From: Moraxellaceae bacterium REDSEA-S32_B1
GTDB taxonomy: Bacteria > Pseudomonadota > Gammaproteobacteria > Pseudomonadales > Moraxellaceae
Direction: 5' to 3'
Assembly: GCA_001626925.1 (NCBI GenBank)
Contig: LUOR01000012.1
Span: 856-64,855 of the forward strand
DNA: 64,000 nucleotides
Part shown: positions 21,159-28,875 of the stretch, piece after piece
Layout: each line of letters starts with the position of its first letter
Numbering within the stretch: position 1 is the stretch's first letter
The notes under the pieces: generated by a model
The model's database searches: none
What the model saw: the letters and a program-made list of their open reading frames with translations, nothing else
Told to the model about the DNA's origin: nothing
Program-made: the position numbers and the translations under genes

Positions 21159-22247
21159 TTAGACTGTAAATAACAATTGAAGCCACGCAATCATCGCAAC
21201 GACGATCGACACAGGGACAACGATACGAATCAAAATTCGCCACAGGTTATAGCTGATTTCACTTTTAAAATTCAGTGATTTACGCAAATGACTAATCTTC
21301 ATCAACCACCCTGCAAATATTGCATAGGCAAGACAAAGTACCAAACCGAGTACAATTAGTATTGGATATAAAACATTACTGATCGGCAACGCCCAAATCA
21401 ATATTGGAATCAGCAAAATCAAAGCTTGAATAGGCAACGCCACTTGACGTTGAATCAGTTGCGCCCGAACCAATTGCAATAGATAACCAGACAAGCCCAA
21501 TGCACCTATTAACAATGCCAGATCTTGGACTTCGGTTGTGGCCTGATTCGCCCAAAGCATTGCCAATAAACCAAGTGCTTGGGCAATCCAAATGGGTAAT
21601 ACAATCGGCGTACTTGGTGATTTCTCTGTACCTGTAGACAAGCTTTGCGTAGCAGACTGCCAATACACACCTAAGCCCAAAGCGCCAGTGACTAAGGTCA
21701 AGGTTACGACTTTTGCCCACTCTGCAAAGCTCACCCCTGTCCATTGCCAAACACCCTGCTCTGCCAGCATACCCATTACCACATAAACCAACACAGCGAT
21801 AGCAGACACTGCGAGTAAGATCAATCTTGGCAACATCGACAAAGCAACTGCGACGATGGCTAAAACTAAAATCGCAATACTTGGACTAAATTGAAGTGCA
21901 AACTGTGACATCACAGCGTTATTGGCATAATGTATAATCGCGCCTGCAAATAGTGGCACAGTCACAATCGCCAACCAGCTCATCACACGCCAATGCGTCG
22001 ATACATCCGCATCACGAGTCAGCTGCATCAAACCCTGTAACGGTGCAGACTTGGCACGTTTAGCCAAACCAACTTCCATATACATTGCAGGCAATGCCAA
22101 AACGAGCATGGTCACCACCCACAATATTAAAAAGTCATACTGCTGATAAGCCACCAAACCTAAAGTTGGCGCCAAAGTCACACTGAACAAGAATGATAAA
22201 CAAAATGCCAAAACTGGCGTGATCCATGTCGGTTGCTGTTGCATCAT
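21159..22247 (-). CDS. Multi-pass membrane protein, distant sodium-dependent (SNF-like) transporter
   Basis: About 11 hydrophobic segments; LPAMYMEVGL and LIRIVVP resemble SNF-family motifs. Confidence 0.65.
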   Translation of the reverse strand: MMQQQPTWITPVLAFCLSFLFSVTLAPTLGLVAYQQYDFLILWVVTMLVLALPAMYMEVGLAKRAKSAPLQGLMQLTRDADVSTHWRVMSWLAIVTVPLFAGAIIHYANNAVMSQFALQFSPSIAILVLAIVAVALSMLPRLILLAVSAIAVLVYVVMGMLAEQGVWQWTGVSFAEWAKVVTLTLVTGALGLGVYWQSATQSLSTGTEKSPSTPIVLPIWIAQALGLLAMLWANQATTEVQDLALLIGALGLSGYLLQLVRAQLIQRQVALPIQALILLIPILIWALPISNVLYPILIVLGLVLCLAYAIFAGWLMKISHLRKSLNFKSEISYNLWRILIRIVVPVSIVVAMIAWLQLLFTV

Positions 22248-22333
22248 ATCGTATTTAAAAGCTATAAAAATCTTGCCTGTATTTTGCCTTTCTCAGACTT
22301 CAAAAGCAAAACTAAAACGATCAAACTCGATAT

Positions 22334-23068
22334 TTAGTAAGACACAAAATCCTTCTTAAGAGTATAAAATTTCATATTAACTGCTATCTCATCAGATAGA
22401 TGAATAGCTCTTAGCCTATCCAGAGCTTGCTCTTCAGAGAAACCCTGCTGAATGAATTCACCAAATTGCTTTGCAATACCATCTCTAATTATTTTTCGAG
22501 CGTTTTTTAAATATGTTTCTTCATTAAGGTTCAATTTATCAATAGAGTTTTGTGCCAACCCCTTAAGTTCCATTGGGCATTGTTTATCAACAATCATTTT
22601 TCCATCACTTTCAAATGTAAATATTTTAGTATCAGGAGGAATTTTTAGCGGATTTAATATGATAGTTGTCCAATCATGTTCTCCTTTATCAGCATCACAA
22701 TGTCGCTTTCTTTTATTTTTAATGAAACGTTCATCATGTTTAAAATAAAGACGTTGTGTTCCCCCATGACAACATCCAAGTAAGTTACTCCATGTTAAAT
22801 GAGCATTCTCTTTAGTATTAGGTAGTAGTGTCTTAGACTTAGGATAAAAATGCTCCACTCTGAAATCTTTCATATGACTTGTTTCATCTACATCAAAGTC
22901 AATTTCACAGTAACAACAAATACCTAACTGATCTTTTTTAATTGTATCTTGAACAATTGCATGTGCTTCTTGAGCCACAGCAACAAAATTTTCCCAAGTA
23001 GCATTAGGATTCTGCGACAAATATTCAGACAATCCATCAGGACAGTTTGACTTTAAAATATGTTTCAT
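22334..23068 (-). CDS. ptuB: Retron-associated HNH nuclease, PtuB/TIGR02646-like
   Basis: CCYCE, VEHFYPK, WSNLLGCC, HCDADKG, ILNP, IDKLNLN; ATGA overlap with the ATPase. Confidence 0.88.
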   Translation of the reverse strand: MKHILKSNCPDGLSEYLSQNPNATWENFVAVAQEAHAIVQDTIKKDQLGICCYCEIDFDVDETSHMKDFRVEHFYPKSKTLLPNTKENAHLTWSNLLGCCHGGTQRLYFKHDERFIKNKRKRHCDADKGEHDWTTIILNPLKIPPDTKIFTFESDGKMIVDKQCPMELKGLAQNSIDKLNLNEETYLKNARKIIRDGIAKQFGEFIQQGFSEEQALDRLRAIHLSDEIAVNMKFYTLKKDFVSY

Positions 23069-24645
23069 TGTTTTGAGCGTTTAAATTTTCTTAAGGAAAT
23101 TTCGATATCAATTTGATCTAGTTCAGTTTCTTTATTTTTACCCCAAGCATCTAGCTTTTCACGTAATAATTTAGCCTCATCAGAGTCCCATTTATCGTGA
23201 TTAACTAACTCAATATACTGATCTAACCATTGGACTTCTTCCACTTCTTGAGGTCTTGGATCAACATTAAAAACATCCTTTAATACTACATTAGACTGAG
23301 CACCTTTTGTAAAATCTGGAATTTCATATTCATATGTATTATTTGAATTTATATAAATAGAACGTATAGATTCTGGCTCTACCGTGGTGATTACATGTGG
23401 ACTATGAGTAGTAATAATAAACTGTAAATTTGGAAAAGATTCCCTTAAAATTAAAATAATTTGTTGTTGCCACGTCGGGTGTAAATGTAGCTCTATCTCA
23501 TCAATCAAAATAACACCATTGCCATGCAATGGATTATCAGAAACATTATTCAATAAGATTAATCTTCTTGCAATATCACCAAGCAGACCAAATAGCACTC
23601 TTTGACCATCAGAAAATTGATCTAAAAAAATAGATTCTTTTTCCAACTGAATAAAAATTTTATCTTTTCCATCATCATTGTTAATTAATTCAATATTTTT
23701 TAAGTCTTTATAGATACCTTTAAATAATTTCTCCAAAGATACAATAATATTCTGTGCTTTCAAATTTAATTCTTGGTTAGGGTATACTTTTATGATTGAA
23801 AACAAATCCTCATATACCTCATATAAAGGATGCTCTTTGTTATTCGCCCCTGTTTCTAAAAGAATATCAATTTGCGACTGAATCTTCTGCCTTTCTGAAT
23901 TAGCAACAACAGGTTCTGATACCTTTAATAGCTGAACCAACCACTCATAGAAAAGATCAAATGATGTCCTATAATTTAGAGCATTGTCATACCCATCAAT
24001 TTTTTCAAAATTAATTTTTTGACTATTATTTGCTCCTTTTTGCAGTCGATCAATTCCATAGTAAGCAAACAATGGTAAATTAATATCTTTATACTCATTC
24101 AAATAACGAATATCACGCCCTAAGTTACGATAATTAATAAGTTCGCTCTTTAAATCACTCTTTAAACCATCAATTTGACGTGCTATTCTGCCTCGTAATT
24201 TATTTTTACTAGAACCAATAGAAAATTCACAATCTATATATGCTCCTAATTTTTTTTTCTTAGCATCATTATTAATTTCATCCTCTTCTATACGACCTCC
24301 ATTTGTATTATCTTTTCTTGTTGTTGCTGCAATCCACATTAAATTTCTACGAATAGCTTCCAAAAGGCTAGTCTTACCTACACCATTTTCACCTATAAAG
24401 ACTGTTAATCTTTCATCCAAATTAATTTTTAAATTTTTAATCTTCTTAAAATTAGAGACATTAAGCTCATCTAAAGAAACATGGCTATACAATATTGTAG
24501 TTGCTTGAGTAAATATTTCTAAAGCCCGTCCTTCGTTCTTTTCAAAACCATTCAGCCCATCTTTATAGTTCAAAAACAACTGAACTGCTGAATTAAAGTT
24601 ACCATTCTTAGCATTAGAGATGAGATGTCTTTGATTATTATCCAT
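23065..24645 (-). CDS. ptuA: Retron-associated ABC/AAA ATPase, PtuA-like
   Basis: GENGVGKT Walker A, FSDGQR signature, ILIDEIELHLHP, TTHSP; start overlaps the RT stop. Confidence 0.92.
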   Translation of the reverse strand: MDNNQRHLISNAKNGNFNSAVQLFLNYKDGLNGFEKNEGRALEIFTQATTILYSHVSLDELNVSNFKKIKNLKINLDERLTVFIGENGVGKTSLLEAIRRNLMWIAATTRKDNTNGGRIEEDEINNDAKKKKLGAYIDCEFSIGSSKNKLRGRIARQIDGLKSDLKSELINYRNLGRDIRYLNEYKDINLPLFAYYGIDRLQKGANNSQKINFEKIDGYDNALNYRTSFDLFYEWLVQLLKVSEPVVANSERQKIQSQIDILLETGANNKEHPLYEVYEDLFSIIKVYPNQELNLKAQNIIVSLEKLFKGIYKDLKNIELINNDDGKDKIFIQLEKESIFLDQFSDGQRVLFGLLGDIARRLILLNNVSDNPLHGNGVILIDEIELHLHPTWQQQIILILRESFPNLQFIITTHSPHVITTVEPESIRSIYINSNNTYEYEIPDFTKGAQSNVVLKDVFNVDPRPQEVEEVQWLDQYIELVNHDKWDSDEAKLLREKLDAWGKNKETELDQIDIEISLRKFKRSKQ

Positions 24646-25585
24646 TATTGCTTCCTGAACGTAAATTAGCCAAAGTTTTTCCTGAATATTTCCGCTCTAA
24701 GGCATTTAGAAACTGAGGTTCTATATGCTGAACAAAGCTTAAATATCCTCGTAAGTAACTCAGATCAGATTCACTAATTTCACTATTAGTAAACTTATAA
24801 ACTAGCCCTTTAATATATCTTTTCTTTTTTCTACCTATTGATAGCATAGCGTCATTCGTTACTGTAACGCCAGTTATATGCCTATTATGTTTTTTTGAAG
24901 AAAAAACTGTTTTAAATGCATTAATAGATATTCGACCACCATACAGTTCCTGCAATATTTTTTCCACCTTCACAGGCAAATCAAATAGCAATGTTTTTTG
25001 ATCCGTTGAGAAGCTAAGGTCGTCAGCATAACGTGTATATTTAATTCCATTATCATGACAATATTCACTAATTTGGACATCGAAAAGATACATACAAAAA
25101 TTTGAAATTAAGGGAGAACTAGGAGCACCTATACTCAAAACCAATTTCTTAGAATATTTGCTAGGTTGCCAAAAAACTATTCTTTCTATCCAGAATTTAT
25201 CTAAAAAATCAAAATACAAGTTATTTTTCTCGCAAGACTCCCATAATATTTTAGGCGTAATTGAGTGAAAAAAGTCTGAAAAATCCATTTTTAGAAAGTA
25301 CGTATTATTTTTATGGATTAATGCATTGTCTTTAATACTTTTTTTACATTGATACGCTGTAGCCAATGAATGTACTGGTAACATCTGCTCAAATTGTGCA
25401 ACTAAATAATTTTGATATAATTTTAATTCAGGAGTAGGTTGAGCAATAGTACGAGTACCTGACGTTCTTTTGGGAATTTGATAAACTTTATATTTTCTCG
25501 GCGCATCTTGCAGAAACAGAAAAAAACTGCTCTGATTTAAATTGAATTTTTTTAGAAAATTATTTAACAAATTGACTTTAGACAC
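24638..25585 (-). CDS. ret: Retron reverse transcriptase, Ec78/Ec83-like clade
   Basis: APRKYKVY.IPKR, region X NALIH, GAPSSP, YTRYADD, region Y NRHITG (VTG variant). Confidence 0.96.
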   Translation of the reverse strand: MSKVNLLNNFLKKFNLNQSSFFLFLQDAPRKYKVYQIPKRTSGTRTIAQPTPELKLYQNYLVAQFEQMLPVHSLATAYQCKKSIKDNALIHKNNTYFLKMDFSDFFHSITPKILWESCEKNNLYFDFLDKFWIERIVFWQPSKYSKKLVLSIGAPSSPLISNFCMYLFDVQISEYCHDNGIKYTRYADDLSFSTDQKTLLFDLPVKVEKILQELYGGRISINAFKTVFSSKKHNRHITGVTVTNDAMLSIGRKKKRYIKGLVYKFTNSEISESDLSYLRGYLSFVQHIEPQFLNALERKYSGKTLANLRSGSNNG

Positions 25586-25605
25586 AATATTAACCCATTA
25601 AAGCA

Positions 25606-25630
25606 GTTTAGAGGAGATACTCCTCTAAAC
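25606..25630. other. Perfect 11-bp hairpin between the retron ncRNA and the RT start
   Basis: GTTTAGAGGAG-ATA-CTCCTCTAAAC. Confidence 0.85.
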
Positions 25631-25633
25631 CAC

Positions 25634-25772
25634 ACTCTTTACTTGAGCAAAAGTTTCAATTATTTGCGATTGCAATGAGCGAATCATTGAAACTTTTGTA
25701 TCACAAAAGCATCAATAAATTAGAGTCTGGCTAAACACCCGACTAGACTGTTACGTCTAAAAACTAAAGAGC
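25634..25772 (-). ncRNA. Retron msr-msd ncRNA
   Basis: a1 CTCTTTA (25771-25765) pairs with a2 TAAAGAG (25641-25635); G:G juxtaposition at 25764/25642; two msr stems; msd hairpin 25648-25698; cDNA starts TTGA. Confidence 0.9.
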
Positions 25773-25778
25773 TAGAAC

Positions 25779-25807
25779 ATTCTAAAATATTCTTAAGCAC
25801 TTAACAA
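25779..25807 (-). promoter_or_regulatory. Retron promoter
   Basis: TTGTTA-N17-TAGAAT placing +1 at about 25772-25773, the first base of a1. Confidence 0.7.
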
Positions 25808-25859
25808 TACCCACTTACTGACGAACCATAAACATCACACGACAGTCATACTCAAATGG

Positions 25860-25884
25860 AAAAAGATCGCCGAAGCGACCTTTT
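25860..25884 (-). terminator. groESL terminator
   Basis: AAAAGGUCGC-UUCG-GCGAUCUUUUU. Confidence 0.9.
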
Positions 25885-25907
25885 CTTTAGATAAGATGAG
25901 CGATGTT

Positions 25908-27566
<1,659 letters not shown>

Positions 27567-28089: not shown

Positions 28090-28875
28090 TTAAGTCATGT
28101 CATTCTTCGGCCAAATGCGTTTCCATTTTTGAAAACTTTTTGTTGATTCATCATATAAATAAGCATCAATTTCACCTTGCGCAGTGATCACATTAAAGCC
28201 ATTTTCCTCGCCATGATGGGTGCGATTGGAGAAGGTCGTACCTGCATGGATATCCAGCACCGACTGCGCCACACTGAGATGATAAAAATCATTCAGATGA
28301 TAGACCGCAGATTGATGCAGATGACCATGCAGCAAACCGTTCAAACCCGCATCTGCCCAGTGCCTAAGCGCAATTTCTCCCGACACAGGACAATCTTCCA
28401 CATGCTTATCAAACGGTTCGCAGTAAAATGGCTGATGTACTGCGACTAACTTATATAGATGCTCAGGGGCATTTTTCAGTTTGGCTTCCACTTCTGCGAT
28501 TTGCTTGGTAGAAACATAACCTTTGGTATGATATTTCGGGCGAATACTATTGACGCCGACCACATAAAAATGCTCGGAAACAATCTCCTTTTCCATTGCG
28601 CCAAAGAACAATTGATAACGCCCAAAAGGATTTAAGAATCTGCGCCACACATGATACAGCGGAATATCGTGATTGCCTGGCACGACTAGATACAGAATAT
28701 TTAAGCTTTCTAAAAACTGCCGACACGCATAAAACTGTTGAAAACGTGCACGTTGGGTCAAATCACCACTGACAATGACTAATTCAGGTCGATTCGCTTC
28801 ACAAAAATTTTGAACTGCCTGTACACGTTCGGGAAGCTCTGTACCAAAATGCAAATCAGATAGATGAAGCAGCAT
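28090..28875 (-). CDS. Metallophosphoesterase
   Basis: HLSDLHFG, SGDLT, PGNHD, HGHLH. Confidence 0.9.
   Translation of the reverse strand: MLLHLSDLHFGTELPERVQAVQNFCEANRPELVIVSGDLTQRARFQQFYACRQFLESLNILYLVVPGNHDIPLYHVWRRFLNPFGRYQLFFGAMEKEIVSEHFYVVGVNSIRPKYHTKGYVSTKQIAEVEAKLKNAPEHLYKLVAVHQPFYCEPFDKHVEDCPVSGEIALRHWADAGLNGLLHGHLHQSAVYHLNDFYHLSVAQSVLDIHAGTTFSNRTHHGEENGFNVITAQGEIDAYLYDESTKSFQKWKRIWPKNDMT

What the first reader, a model, noticed from the sequence alone, without database searches (positions are those of the whole stretch)
25634..25772. Unannotated msr-msd ncRNA resolved to the branch point
TTGTTA-N17-TAGAAT puts +1 at about 25772, so the RNA starts at a short a1 arm (7 bp plus G-U) pairing with a2. 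The next bases are G25764 (predicted branching G) opposite G25642, the canonical geometry. msr stems: UAGAC/GUCUA and AGUC-GG/CC-A-GACU. Templated cDNA begins TTGA, as I recall for Ec78/Ec83 msDNAs that are processed after nt 4. Predicted msDNA: TTGAG-CAAAAGTTTCAAT-TATTTGCGATTGCAATGAGCGAATC-ATTGAAACTTTTG-TATCAC..., about 70-80 nt (3' end uncertain), with a 13-bp stem, one mismatch and a 6-bp upper stem. It is also a candidate genome-editing retron for Acinetobacter.
Basis: partly seen in the sequence, partly recalled or inferred. Interest (0 to 1): 0.85.

Follow-up and report, generated by a model that had tools for sequence, protein, structure and literature searches.

The report
Type I-A retron ncRNA beside groEL
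This is a genuine retron non-coding RNA gene (msr-msd) in front of a reverse transcriptase, an ATPase and an HNH nuclease. It is an ordinary new member of the well-studied Ec78/Ec83 phage-defence retrons, with one twist: its host lacks the nuclease that trims this DNA in E. coli.

Summary
On the minus strand, just downstream of groESL, lies a low-GC cassette: promoter, a retron ncRNA of about 140-175 nt, RT, PtuA-like ATPase and PtuB-like HNH nuclease. This is a type I-A retron.

- **ncRNA match:** Rfam msr scores above its gathering threshold. A covariance model built here from 14 homologous ncRNAs gives one hit in the 64 kb window.
- **Covariation:** in 40 homologs, a1/a2, stem-loop 2 and the base of the msd stem all covary.
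- **Branch point:** G25764 is the branching G, ninth base of the RNA as in Ec78, facing G25642.
- **msDNA:** it starts with TTGA, the same four bases that are removed from Ec78 msDNA. By homology to the Ec78 cryo-EM structures the 3' end lies opposite G25713. That gives 71 nt, or 67 nt if trimmed.

- The two msr stems share one A.
- The gene continues into a conserved hairpin after a2 (25633-25603).
- xseA, which encodes the ExoVII subunit credited with the cut after nt 4 in E. coli, is absent from this genome. Processing in the native host is therefore open.

Verdict: a new member of a known kind, with modest interest.

The parts
25860..25880 (-). Terminator-like hairpin of groEL (GGUCGC-UUCG-GCGAUC followed by UUUUU). 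It separates groEL from the retron promoter.
   Evidence: Read directly from the sequence. The consensus terminator scan did not call it.
25779..25807 (-). Sigma-70-type promoter: -35 TTGTTA (25807-25802), 17-nt spacer, -10 TAGAAT (25784-25779).
   Evidence: Found by the scan. The -35 TTG and the -10 TAnnAT are conserved in register in 12 homologous loci whose surrounding sequence has diverged, always 6 nt before the G/A of (G/A)CUCUUUAG. The Ec78-type locus L011 has the same TTGTTA-N17-hexamer-N6 geometry.
25632..25772 (-). Retron ncRNA core, msr-msd from a1 to a2. Predicted +1 is at G25772 or A25773.
   Evidence: Rfam msr 62.9 bits at 25708-25772. Model R1 scores 120.7 bits over 25632-25772 and is the only hit in the window. 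The sequence is single copy in the genome.
25765..25772 (-). a1 inverted repeat, GCUCUUUA.
   Evidence: Pairs with 25641-25634 in the minimum-free-energy fold. All 8 pairs show changes on both sides among 40 homologs. The repeat is invariant in the 12 close relatives.
25764..25764 (-). Predicted branching (priming) guanosine. It is the ninth base of the RNA and is preceded by UUA.
   Evidence: Invariant G in the 14 aligned homologs of A2 and the 12 of A4. It corresponds to rG9 of Retron-Eco7 (PMC12640716). It faces G25642, matching the 'branching G and opposing G' geometry of PMC12673091. The 2'-5' bond itself was not tested.
25745..25758 (-). msr stem-loop 1: AGAC (25758-25755) pairs with GUCU (25748-25745). 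A U25759-A25744 pair would compete with stem-loop 2.
   Evidence: Seen in the fold. L108 carries a compensatory A-U to G-C change, and there are one-sided changes that keep pairing. Other homologs have different helices at the same place, for example GGAAC/GUUCC and AGGCU/AGCCU.
25724..25744 (-). msr stem-loop 2: AGUC-GGG-UGUUU-(A)GCC-A-GACU. In Ec78 this is the RT-bound handle.
   Evidence: RNAalifold predicts it. Four of its 6 counted pairs carry double changes in 40 homologs, and 99% of cells are paired. It corresponds to rU27-rU48 seen in the Ec78 cryo-EM map (PMC12819146).
25705..25723 (-). Conserved linker CUAAUUUAUU (25723-25714), followed by the predicted termination/template segment GAUGCUUUU (25713-25705). 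This segment should stay paired with the msDNA 3' end.
   Evidence: It aligns with Ec78 rC49-rU58 and rG59-rU67 (PMC12819146, PMC12673091). The linker is nearly invariant.
25643..25713 (+). Predicted msDNA; the + strand sequence is the cDNA. It is 71 nt: TTGAGCAAAAGTTTCAATTATTTGCGATTGCAATGAGCGAATCATTGAAACTTTTGTATCACAAAAGCATC. It would be 67 nt (25647-25713) if the first four bases are removed.
   Evidence: The 5' end follows from the branch geometry. The 3' end follows from homology to Ec78, where dC77 pairs with rG59 (PMC12819146, PMC12673091). DNA fold. The 3' end is inferred and could be off by 1-2 nt.
25648..25698 (-). msd hairpin template. Lower arms CAAAAGUUUCAAU (25698-25686) and AUUGAAACUUUUG (25660-25648). 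Upper arms AUUCGC (25684-25679) and GCAAAU (25667-25662).
   Evidence: Compensatory double changes in L110 (UC to CA with GA to UG) and L114. Eight of 8 basal pairs covary in 40 homologs. The upper stem holds a C-A mismatch in the RNA in all 11 distinct rows, which becomes a T-G wobble in the DNA.
25634..25642 (-). Opposing G25642 and the a2 inverted repeat UAAAGAGU (25641-25634).
   Evidence: The motif AG-UAAAGAG is invariant in the close relatives.
25603..25633 (-). 14-bp hairpin immediately after a2 (GUGGUUUAGAGGAG-UAU-CUCCUCUAAACUG, dG -19.8), followed by CUUUAAU. It is a likely 3' end or attenuator of the ncRNA ahead of the RT.
   Evidence: A 12-16 bp hairpin of unrelated sequence sits at the same place in all 12 relatives and in the Ec78-type locus. 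Most are followed by a U tract. The hairpin is part of the Rfam STnc400 model that weakly matches 25595-25700. In the window the U tract is weak.
24638..25585 (-). Retron reverse transcriptase, 315 aa, GTG start. Motifs: NALIH (NAxxH), YADD, and ITG in place of VTG.
   Evidence: PADLOC RT_I-A 430 bits. NCBIfam retron_St85_RT 327.7 bits against a cut-off of 235. PDB Ec78 RT 297 bits and Ec83 RT 270 bits. Motifs.
23065..24645 (-). PtuA-like SMC/ABC-type ATPase, 526 aa. It overlaps the RT stop by 8 nt. Motifs: Walker A GENGVGKTS, signature FSDGQR, Walker B ILIDEIE.
   Evidence: PADLOC ATPase_I-A 480 bits and PtuA 498 bits. NCBIfam PtuA 441 bits, below the equivalog cut-off of 500. PDB Ec78 PtuA 245 bits. 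About 34% identity to E. coli PtuA.
22334..23068 (-). PtuB-like HNH nuclease, 244 aa. It overlaps the ATPase stop by 4 nt.
   Evidence: PADLOC PtuB 233 bits and HNH_I-A 155 bits. TIGR02646 87 bits against a cut-off of 52. NCBIfam PtuB 140.8 bits, below the cut-off of 150. The best solved relative is the Ec83 HNH, E 4e-20. There is no BLASTP hit to the Ec78-type PtuB.

Best explanation
The stretch is the msr-msd gene of a type I-A retron, the Retron-Eco7/Ec78 and Eco4/Ec83 'Retron-Septu' kind. It was acquired horizontally and sits downstream of groESL.

Proposed mechanism, step by step:
1. A sigma-70 promoter starts the RNA at about 25772.
2. The ends of the RNA pair (a1 with a2), which places G25764 opposite G25642.
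3. The RT encoded just downstream binds stem-loop 2 and primes from the 2'-OH of G25764. It copies the msd template from A25643 up to about G25713, while RNase H removes the template.
4. The product is a hairpin msDNA of about 71 nt. Its last roughly 6-9 nt stay paired to the msr segment GAUGCUUUU.
5. By analogy with Ec78 and Ec83, this RT-RNA-DNA particle carries the PtuA ATPase tetramer and the PtuB HNH nuclease along the DNA hairpin and keeps them inactive. Phage infection disturbs the msDNA and releases them, giving abortive infection.

Basis of each claim:
- Shown here: the sequence elements, family membership of the RNA and of all three proteins, covariation of the helices, and conservation of the promoter.
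- Inferred by homology: the branch nucleotide, both msDNA ends, and the defence role.
- Open: whether the first four nucleotides (TTGA) are cut off in the native host.
For: - **RNA family:** Rfam msr above gathering. Own model R1 scores 120.7 bits with a single hit in the window.
- **Covariation in 40 homologs:** 96.4% of cells paired against 76% in shuffles and 29-47% in slid controls. Twenty-one of 23 pairs carry changes on both sides, including all 8 a1/a2 pairs and all 8 basal msd pairs.
- **Close relatives (12 loci):** promoter, a1, the branching G, stem-loop 2 and the linker keep their register, and the msd stem shows compensatory changes.
- **Proteins:** RT_I-A 430 bits, ATPase_I-A 480 bits and HNH_I-A 155 bits in PADLOC. 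The best PDB hits are the Ec78 and Ec83 chains. Catalytic motifs are intact. Start and stop codons overlap, consistent with an operon.
- **Geometry matches solved Ec78:** in the Ec78-type locus L011 the branch is rG9, the opposing G lies 127 nt further on, the junction is CUCAAG-UAAAGAGU, and dC77 pairs with rG59. This fits the published numbering exactly (PMC12819146, PMC12673091, PMC12640716).
- **Host factor:** RNase H is present in the genome.
- **Acquisition:** the cassette has GC near 0.30 against 0.42 for the genome.
- **Other samples:** the identical ncRNA with a 99% identical RT was recovered from two other sequencing samples, with gene calls flanking the retron on both sides.
Against: - No direct evidence of transcription or of msDNA exists.
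- Within the close subgroup most pairs are invariant, so covariation there is thin (6 pairs). The 40-sequence alignment was fitted to the model's structure, which biases pair counts towards it.
- The minimum-free-energy fold of the RNA alone prefers a local hairpin, GCUUUUGU-GAU-ACAAAAGU, over the long msd stem (-39.9 against -36.0 kcal/mol).
- PtuA and PtuB fall below NCBI's Ec78 equivalog cut-offs, and PtuB is very diverged from Ec78 PtuB.
- xseA is absent, so the Ec78-style debranching thought necessary for PtuAB docking may not occur as it does in E. coli.
Confidence: 0.9

Rival explanations
1. The retron is real, but its msDNA is not trimmed after nucleotide 4 in its own host. Either it stays 2'-5' branched, or a nuclease other than ExoVII debranches it, possibly at another position. 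The Ec78-type maturation step would then not be universal for type I-A retrons.
For: - xseA was not found in the 98.6% complete genome by TIGR00237, by PF02601, or by tblastn with a same-genus XseA (best E 0.11).
- It is also absent from G049, a second same-genus host of a type I-A retron. It is present in 5 other hosts of this RT clade.
- ExoVII is named as the enzyme that removes the first four nucleotides in Sen2, Eco9 and Eco7 (bioRxiv 10.1101/2020.06.22.160168; PMC12673091; PMC12640716).
- In the window the single-stranded 5' flap before the stem is only 4-5 nt, shorter than in Ec78 (8 nt) and in the closest relatives (up to 7 nt).
Against: - The junction CUCAAG-UAAAGAGU and the resulting 5'-TTGA are identical to Ec78.
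- The Ec78 structure paper argues that retained a1, stem-loop 1 and the branch would clash with PtuAB (PMC12819146). Some processing is therefore expected if the complex is built the same way.
- That paper also reports that the RT influences processing, so the responsible host enzyme may not be ExoVII alone.
- A draft genome of 80 contigs can miss a gene.
- xseB could not be detected even in xseA-positive relatives, so that test is uninformative.
Confidence: 0.45
2. The cassette is a decaying or silent retron. The ncRNA sequence is recognisable, but no msDNA is made and the genes no longer defend.
For: - The U tract after the a2 hairpin is weak.
- The RT start is GTG with a poor ribosome-binding site.
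- PtuA and PtuB score below the NCBI equivalog cut-offs.
- There are no expression data.
Against: - All three reading frames are intact, with catalytic motifs present.
- The ncRNA scores as well as its relatives.
- The same locus, with an identical ncRNA and a 99% identical RT, was recovered from two other samples.
- A PtuAB pair without its msDNA is reported to be toxic (PMC12819146), which argues for continued selection on the ncRNA and the RT.
Confidence: 0.07
3. The region is only a structured 5' leader or attenuator of the RT-ATPase-HNH operon, or a small regulatory RNA of the STnc400 kind, with no templating role.
For: - Rfam STnc400 gives a weak match at 25595-25700 (26 bits, E 0.045).
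- A conserved terminator-like hairpin lies between a2 and the RT.
Against: - The STnc400 match is far below its gathering score of 80.
- Where STnc400 scores above gathering (L007, 89 bits), it lies directly after an msr hit in a St85-type retron. That Rfam family therefore appears to describe the msd half of such retrons rather than an alternative identity.
- The leader idea does not explain the invariant UUA-G, the opposing G, or the covarying long-range a1/a2 helix.
Confidence: 0.03

Closest known systems
Retron-Eco7 (Ec78), type I-A, E. coli; cryo-EM structures 9NNB/9NNH, 9VHE and 9KJX
   Same: - Gene order: ncRNA, RT, PtuA, PtuB.
- Promoter geometry: TTGTTA-N17-hexamer-N6.
- a1 (G/A)CUCUUUA with the branch at rG9 and an opposing G.
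- Identical CUCAAG-UAAAGAGU junction, so the same 5'-TTGA.
- The same stem-loop 2 and CUAAyUUAUUG linker.
- A hairpin after a2.
- RT 49% identical and PtuA 34% identical.
   Different: - The msd sequence is unrelated and shorter: 71 against 77-78 nt, with a hairpin of about 20 bp against about 27 bp.
- PtuB gives no BLASTP match to Ec78-type PtuB.
- PtuA is 24 aa shorter.
- The host lacks xseA.
- The target (tRNA-Tyr in Ec78) cannot be inferred.
Retron-Eco4 (Ec83), type I-A, E. coli; structures 9E8Z and 9O4A
   Same: - The same architecture and RT clade.
- msDNA reported to be cut between nt 4 and 5 (PMC6868368).
- The window's HNH protein is closest to the Ec83 HNH among solved structures (E 4e-20).
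   Different: - RT and PtuA are nearer to Ec78 than to Ec83 (270 against 297 bits, and 174 against 245 bits).
Type I-A retrons of Acinetobacter and other Moraxellaceae (loci L001/L004, L003, L108-L116; RTs named 'retron St85 family RNA-directed DNA polymerase' in Acinetobacter spp.)
   Same: - The same msd family: CAAAAGUUUnAAU...AUUGAAACUUUUGCUC with the conserved apical UUCGC...UCGCAAA.
- The same msr.
- The same promoter register and the same hairpin after a2.
   Different: - RT is only 57-63% identical.
- The window has the shortest 5' flap (TTGA-G against TTTAGAG, TAATGAG and others) and the shortest msDNA of the set.
- The chromosomal sites differ.
Retron-Sen2 (St85), type II-A, and Rfam RF02058 STnc400
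   Same: - Sister RT clade (RT_II-A 376 bits).
- The same a1/a2 core, linker and hairpin after a2.
- msDNA debranched after 4 nt by ExoVII (bioRxiv 10.1101/2020.06.22.160168).
   Different: - In type II-A an effector gene lies between the ncRNA and the RT, and there is no PtuAB.
- The window has the RT directly after the ncRNA.
Stand-alone Septu (PtuA-PtuB)
   Same: The ATPase and HNH effector pair is homologous (PADLOC PtuA/PtuB hits; PDB 8EE4/8EE7).
   Different: Here the pair is coupled to an RT and an msDNA scaffold. Stand-alone Septu has no retron part.

Membership tests
Retron (RT plus msr-msd ncRNA) | RT with the retron motifs NAxxH, YADD and VTG | tested here: met
   NALIH, YADD and ITG (I in place of V) are present. 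These columns are invariant or nearly so in 32 aligned RTs. NCBIfam retron_St85_RT scores 327.7 bits against a cut-off of 235.
Retron (RT plus msr-msd ncRNA) | ncRNA next to the RT, with terminal inverted repeats a1/a2 | tested here: met
   a1 25772-25765 pairs with a2 25641-25634. All 8 pairs covary in 40 homologs.
Retron (RT plus msr-msd ncRNA) | Conserved priming G after UUA at the end of a1, facing a G | tested here: met
   UUA-G25764 faces G25642. The G is invariant. The geometry is as described for Eco7 (PMC12673091). The UUA/TTA consensus is reported in bioRxiv 10.1101/2024.01.25.577267.
Retron (RT plus msr-msd ncRNA) | Production of 2'-5' branched msDNA | not testable with these tools
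   This needs nucleic-acid extraction.
Rfam RF00170 msr | Score at or above the gathering threshold | tested here: met
   62.9 bits against 52, with full-length model coverage 1-69.
Type I-A retron (Mestre et al. 2020 classification, PMC7736814) | RT followed by an SMC/ABC-type ATPase and an HNH nuclease | tested here: met
   PADLOC RT_I-A 430 bits, ATPase_I-A 480 bits and HNH_I-A 155 bits. The genes overlap in one operon.
Retron Ec78 PtuA/PtuB equivalogs (NCBIfam NF041760, NF041761) | Score above the curated equivalog cut-off | tested here: not met
   PtuA scores 441.4 against 500 and PtuB 140.8 against 150. They are homologous but too diverged to be named Ec78 equivalogs.
Ec78/Ec83-type 'RNA-less' msDNA | msDNA begins with four nucleotides that are cut off (TTGA in Ec78) | tested here: inconclusive
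   The templated start is TTGA, as in Ec78 (PMC12640716). The cut itself cannot be tested.
Ec78/Ec83-type 'RNA-less' msDNA | The host supplies ExoVII (XseA/XseB) for the cut | tested here: not met
   xseA is absent by two HMMs and by tblastn. xseB is undetectable even in xseA-positive relatives, so that test is uninformative.
Ec78/Ec83-type 'RNA-less' msDNA | The host supplies RNase H to remove the template | tested here: met
   PF00075 scores 152.5 bits at G000:C18:24406-24810.

The most novel reading that the evidence does not exclude
This is a type I-A (PtuAB) retron that works in a host without exonuclease VII. Two same-genus genomes carrying such retrons lack xseA. Either PtuAB can assemble on a still-branched msDNA, or another nuclease (possibly helped by the RT) performs the debranching. 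That would mean the ExoVII step taken from E. coli and Salmonella is not a general requirement of this retron clade.
Probability: 0.45. Interest if true: 0.45.

Novelty: new member of a known kind. Interest (0 to 1): 0.3.

Why it matters
For annotation, the locus can be labelled with confidence as a type I-A retron. The ncRNA, the branch point and a predicted 71-nt msDNA are all placed to the nucleotide.

Biologically it adds little to a family that already has Rfam and PADLOC models and several cryo-EM structures.

Two points are useful:
1. The Moraxellaceae subgroup has its own conserved, short msd hairpin. This is a compact scaffold that could be tested as a donor-carrying retron in Acinetobacter, where published retron recombineering is still inefficient (0.15% in A. 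baylyi, PMC12262390).
2. The host has no xseA. It therefore offers a natural test of whether ExoVII-dependent debranching is really needed for PtuAB sequestration.

Tried and rejected
- **RT-based scan of genome contigs:** it gave only two loci, one of which was type II-A. I had to use the genome search, metagenome contigs and exact-protein look-ups instead.
- **Empty-site comparison:** this failed. The membrane-protein gene downstream of the cassette is a core gene of the genus, but groEL is not within 1.5 kb of it in 11 relatives, and the two lie 54-188 kb apart in two of them where both were mapped. No clean insertion boundary could be drawn, and only the GC drop marks the cassette.
- **Rfam structure line for msr:** it pairs the 5' end with the linker rather than with a2, so I did not use it as the structure.
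- **Rfam STnc400, mir-278 and other sub-threshold hits at the locus:** rejected as identities. STnc400 appears to be the msd half of St85-type retrons.
- **xseB search:** no hit even in xseA-positive relatives, so it is uninformative.
- **Kim et al. 1997 on Ec83 cleavage (PMC179573):** the paper is not held, so the Ec83 sequence claim stays unverified.
- **L012, an E. coli P2-prophage retron:** considered as a possible Ec83, but its predicted msDNA is about 96 nt, so it is not Ec83.
- **Earlier findings of this scan:** nothing found.
Full report
**1. What is at the site**

On the minus strand the window carries groES (27905-27615) and groEL (27545-25908; Cpn60). An inverted repeat with a T5 run follows at 25880-25860. 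After it come, in order:
- a promoter-like site, TTGTTA-N17-TAGAAT, at 25807-25779;
- about 190 nt without a reading frame;
- three overlapping genes of 315, 526 and 244 aa at 25585-22334.

PADLOC assigns the three genes to RT_I-A (430 bits), ATPase_I-A/PtuA (480/498 bits) and HNH_I-A/PtuB (155/233 bits). NCBIfam places the RT in the 'retron St85 family', above its cut-off. PtuA (441 against 500) and PtuB (141 against 150) fall just under the Ec78 equivalog cut-offs. The best solved relatives are the Ec78 and Ec83 retron chains. The RT has NAxxH, YADD and ITG. PtuA has Walker A, the signature motif and Walker B. This is a type I-A retron operon.

**2. The ncRNA**

- Rfam msr (RF00170) matches 25708-25772 on the minus strand at 62.9 bits (gathering score 52, E 2.6e-10).
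- The RNA from 25773 to 25631 folds with a1 (25772-25765) paired to a2 (25641-25634). G25764 and G25642 face each other, and two msr hairpins form. The fold has z = -3.7 against dinucleotide shuffles.
- I aligned the corresponding region of 14 loci: the window, two Moraxellaceae genomes, an Ec78-type and a P2-prophage E. coli locus, two type II-A loci and seven metagenome contigs.
- RNAalifold recovered a1/a2, stem-loop 2 and the base of the msd stem.
- A covariance model built from this alignment (R1) found exactly one hit in the 64 kb window (25632-25772, 120.7 bits). It found 39 further hits upstream of related RTs.

On those 40 sequences:
- 96.4% of cells are standard pairs, against 76% in column shuffles and 29-47% when the partner is slid.
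- 21 of 23 pairs carry changes on both sides, including all eight a1/a2 pairs and all eight basal msd pairs.
- This alignment was fitted to the model, which favours the structure. The size of the effect and the slid controls make the conclusion safe.

**3. Close relatives**

The nearest RTs outside the window's own lineage are only 57-63% identical, and many come from Acinetobacter. I fetched eleven such contigs. All carry the ncRNA at the expected place. Two metagenome contigs with a 99% identical RT have an identical ncRNA, with gene calls flanking the retron on both sides.

In the 12-sequence alignment:
- The flanks have diverged. The -35 TTG and a -10 TAnnAT stay in register, always six bases before the G of GCUCUUUAG. 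The Ec78-type locus has the same TTGTTA-N17-hexamer-N6 layout.
- a1, the branching G, stem-loop 2 and the linker CUAAyUUAUUG are invariant.
- The msd stem keeps pairing through double changes in L110 and L114, and stem-loop 1 through a double change in L108.
- The subgroup shares its own msd sequence, CAAAAGUUUnAAU...AUUGAAACUUUUGCUC, with conserved apical UUCGC/UCGCAAA. This differs from the GGGUUGCGAAAG-type stems of enteric retrons.

**4. Anchoring to experiment**

Locus L011 (E. coli MB64) has genes annotated as Ec78 ptuA and ptuB. Its ncRNA reproduces the published numbering of Retron-Eco7/Ec78:
- stem-loop II rU27-rU48, linker rC49-rU58, template rG59-rU67 paired with dA69-dC77, and msDNA lacking dT1-dA4 (PMC12819146);
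- a branching G0 and an opposing G127 (PMC12673091);

In L011 the branch G is base 9 and the opposing G lies 127 nt later. The junction reads CUCAAG-UAAAGAGU, and the distance to G59 gives 77 nt.

The window has the same junction (GCUCAAG-UAAAGAGU), with the branch G at base 9 and the opposing G 122 nt later. The homolog of rG59 is G25713. The predicted msDNA is therefore the + strand 25643-25713, 71 nt, or 67 nt if TTGA is removed. One upper-stem position is a C-A mismatch in the RNA of all relatives, and becomes a T-G wobble in the DNA.

**5.

- The two msr stems quoted share the single A25744. Stem-loop 1 is AGAC/GUCU (25758-25755 with 25748-25745), and the A belongs to stem-loop 2, as in Ec78.
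- Directly after a2 lies a 14-bp hairpin (25633-25603, -19.8 kcal/mol). Every relative and the Ec78-type locus has a 12-16 bp hairpin of unrelated sequence at this spot, and most are followed by a U tract. It probably ends or attenuates the ncRNA before the RT. In the window the U tract is weak.
- The RNA alone slightly prefers a local hairpin, GCUUUUGU-GAU-ACAAAAGU, over the long msd stem. The same local repeat is also present in L110, and I attach no function to it.

**6. The ExoVII point**

In Salmonella and E. coli, removal of the first four nucleotides is attributed to ExoVII (XseA/XseB). It is needed for mature msDNA and for antitoxin activity in Sen2 and Eco9 (bioRxiv 10.1101/2020.06.22.160168). 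The Eco7 papers mark the same site as the ExoVII site (PMC12673091). The Ec78 structure paper argues that a retained branch, a1 and stem-loop 1 would block PtuAB docking (PMC12819146).

- The window's genome (2.38 Mb, 98.6% complete) has no xseA by TIGR00237, by PF02601, or by tblastn with a same-genus XseA (best E 0.11).
- About half of 61 same-genus genomes have xseA.
- G049, another host of a type I-A retron, also lacks it. Five other hosts of this RT clade have it.
- xseB was undetectable even in xseA-positive relatives, so that test says nothing.
- RNase H is present.

Whether this msDNA is trimmed in its own host is therefore open. This is the only part of the finding that goes beyond routine.

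**7. Context**

- The cassette (about 22334-25810) has GC 0.29-0.33, against 0.42 for the genome.
- It is single copy.
- Downstream lies a core membrane-protein gene, followed by rnfH, bamE and fur. In relatives groEL is not within 1.5 kb of that gene, and where both were mapped the two lie 54-188 kb apart. The retron therefore sits at a synteny break, and no empty site could be reconstructed.
- Related RTs occur on plasmids, phages and satellites.

**8. Verdict**

The locus is a new, fairly diverged member of a known and structurally characterised kind. Existing Rfam and PADLOC models recognise it, so interest is modest. It is raised slightly by the compact Moraxellaceae-type msd and by the ExoVII-less host. 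The genome-editing suggestion is reasonable but untested. Published retron recombineering in A. baylyi used foreign retrons at 0.15% efficiency (PMC12262390).

Noticed in passing
whole genome G000 (window = C4:856-64855): xseA (ExoVII large subunit) is absent from this 98.6% complete genome and from G049, another small-genome member of the genus with a type I-A retron. About half of 61 same-genus genomes carry it, and most of the small genomes (about 2.4-2.6 Mb) do not.
   Followed up: yes
L007:3402-3526 (minus strand), next to the msr hit at L007:3528-3609; window 25595-25700: Rfam RF02058 'STnc400' scores above gathering (89 bits) directly after an msr hit in a St85-type (type II-A) retron. 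The family therefore appears to be the msd, a2 and terminator half of such retrons rather than an independent sRNA.
   Followed up: partly
window 22247-25908: The retron sits at a synteny break. groEL is not within 1.5 kb of the downstream core membrane-protein gene (21159-22247) in 11 relatives, and the two lie 54-188 kb apart in two of them where both were mapped. The cassette has GC about 0.30 against 0.42 for the genome.
   Followed up: partly
window 25692-25710, minus strand: A local inverted repeat, GCUUUUGU-GAU-ACAAAAGU, overlaps the predicted termination segment and the 5' arm of the msd stem. It wins in the minimum-free-energy fold. It is present in the window and in L110, but not in the other relatives.
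   Followed up: partly
window 25679-25684 / 25662-25667 and homologs (A4 columns 139/170): One position of the upper msd stem is a C-A mismatch in the RNA of all 11 distinct relatives, but becomes a T-G wobble in the cDNA. This is a hint that the DNA hairpin, not the RNA, is the selected structure.
   Followed up: no
G000:C18:24406-24810: The only RNase H (PF00075) match lies inside a 498-aa open frame, so it is probably fused to another domain. I did not examine the partner.
   Followed up: no
window 28090-28875, minus strand: A 261-aa metallophosphoesterase-like ORF upstream of groES gives only weak partial matches to 'anti-phage phosphoesterase' models (49 bits against a cut-off of 420). 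It is probably a housekeeping phosphoesterase.
   Followed up: no
L012 (E. coli FORC_082, NZ_CP026641.1 3055193-3063305): A type I-A retron lies inside a P2-like prophage, between a DinI-like gene and the portal gene. Its predicted msDNA is about 96 nt and its a2 carries a U-G variant (UGAAGAG).
   Followed up: no
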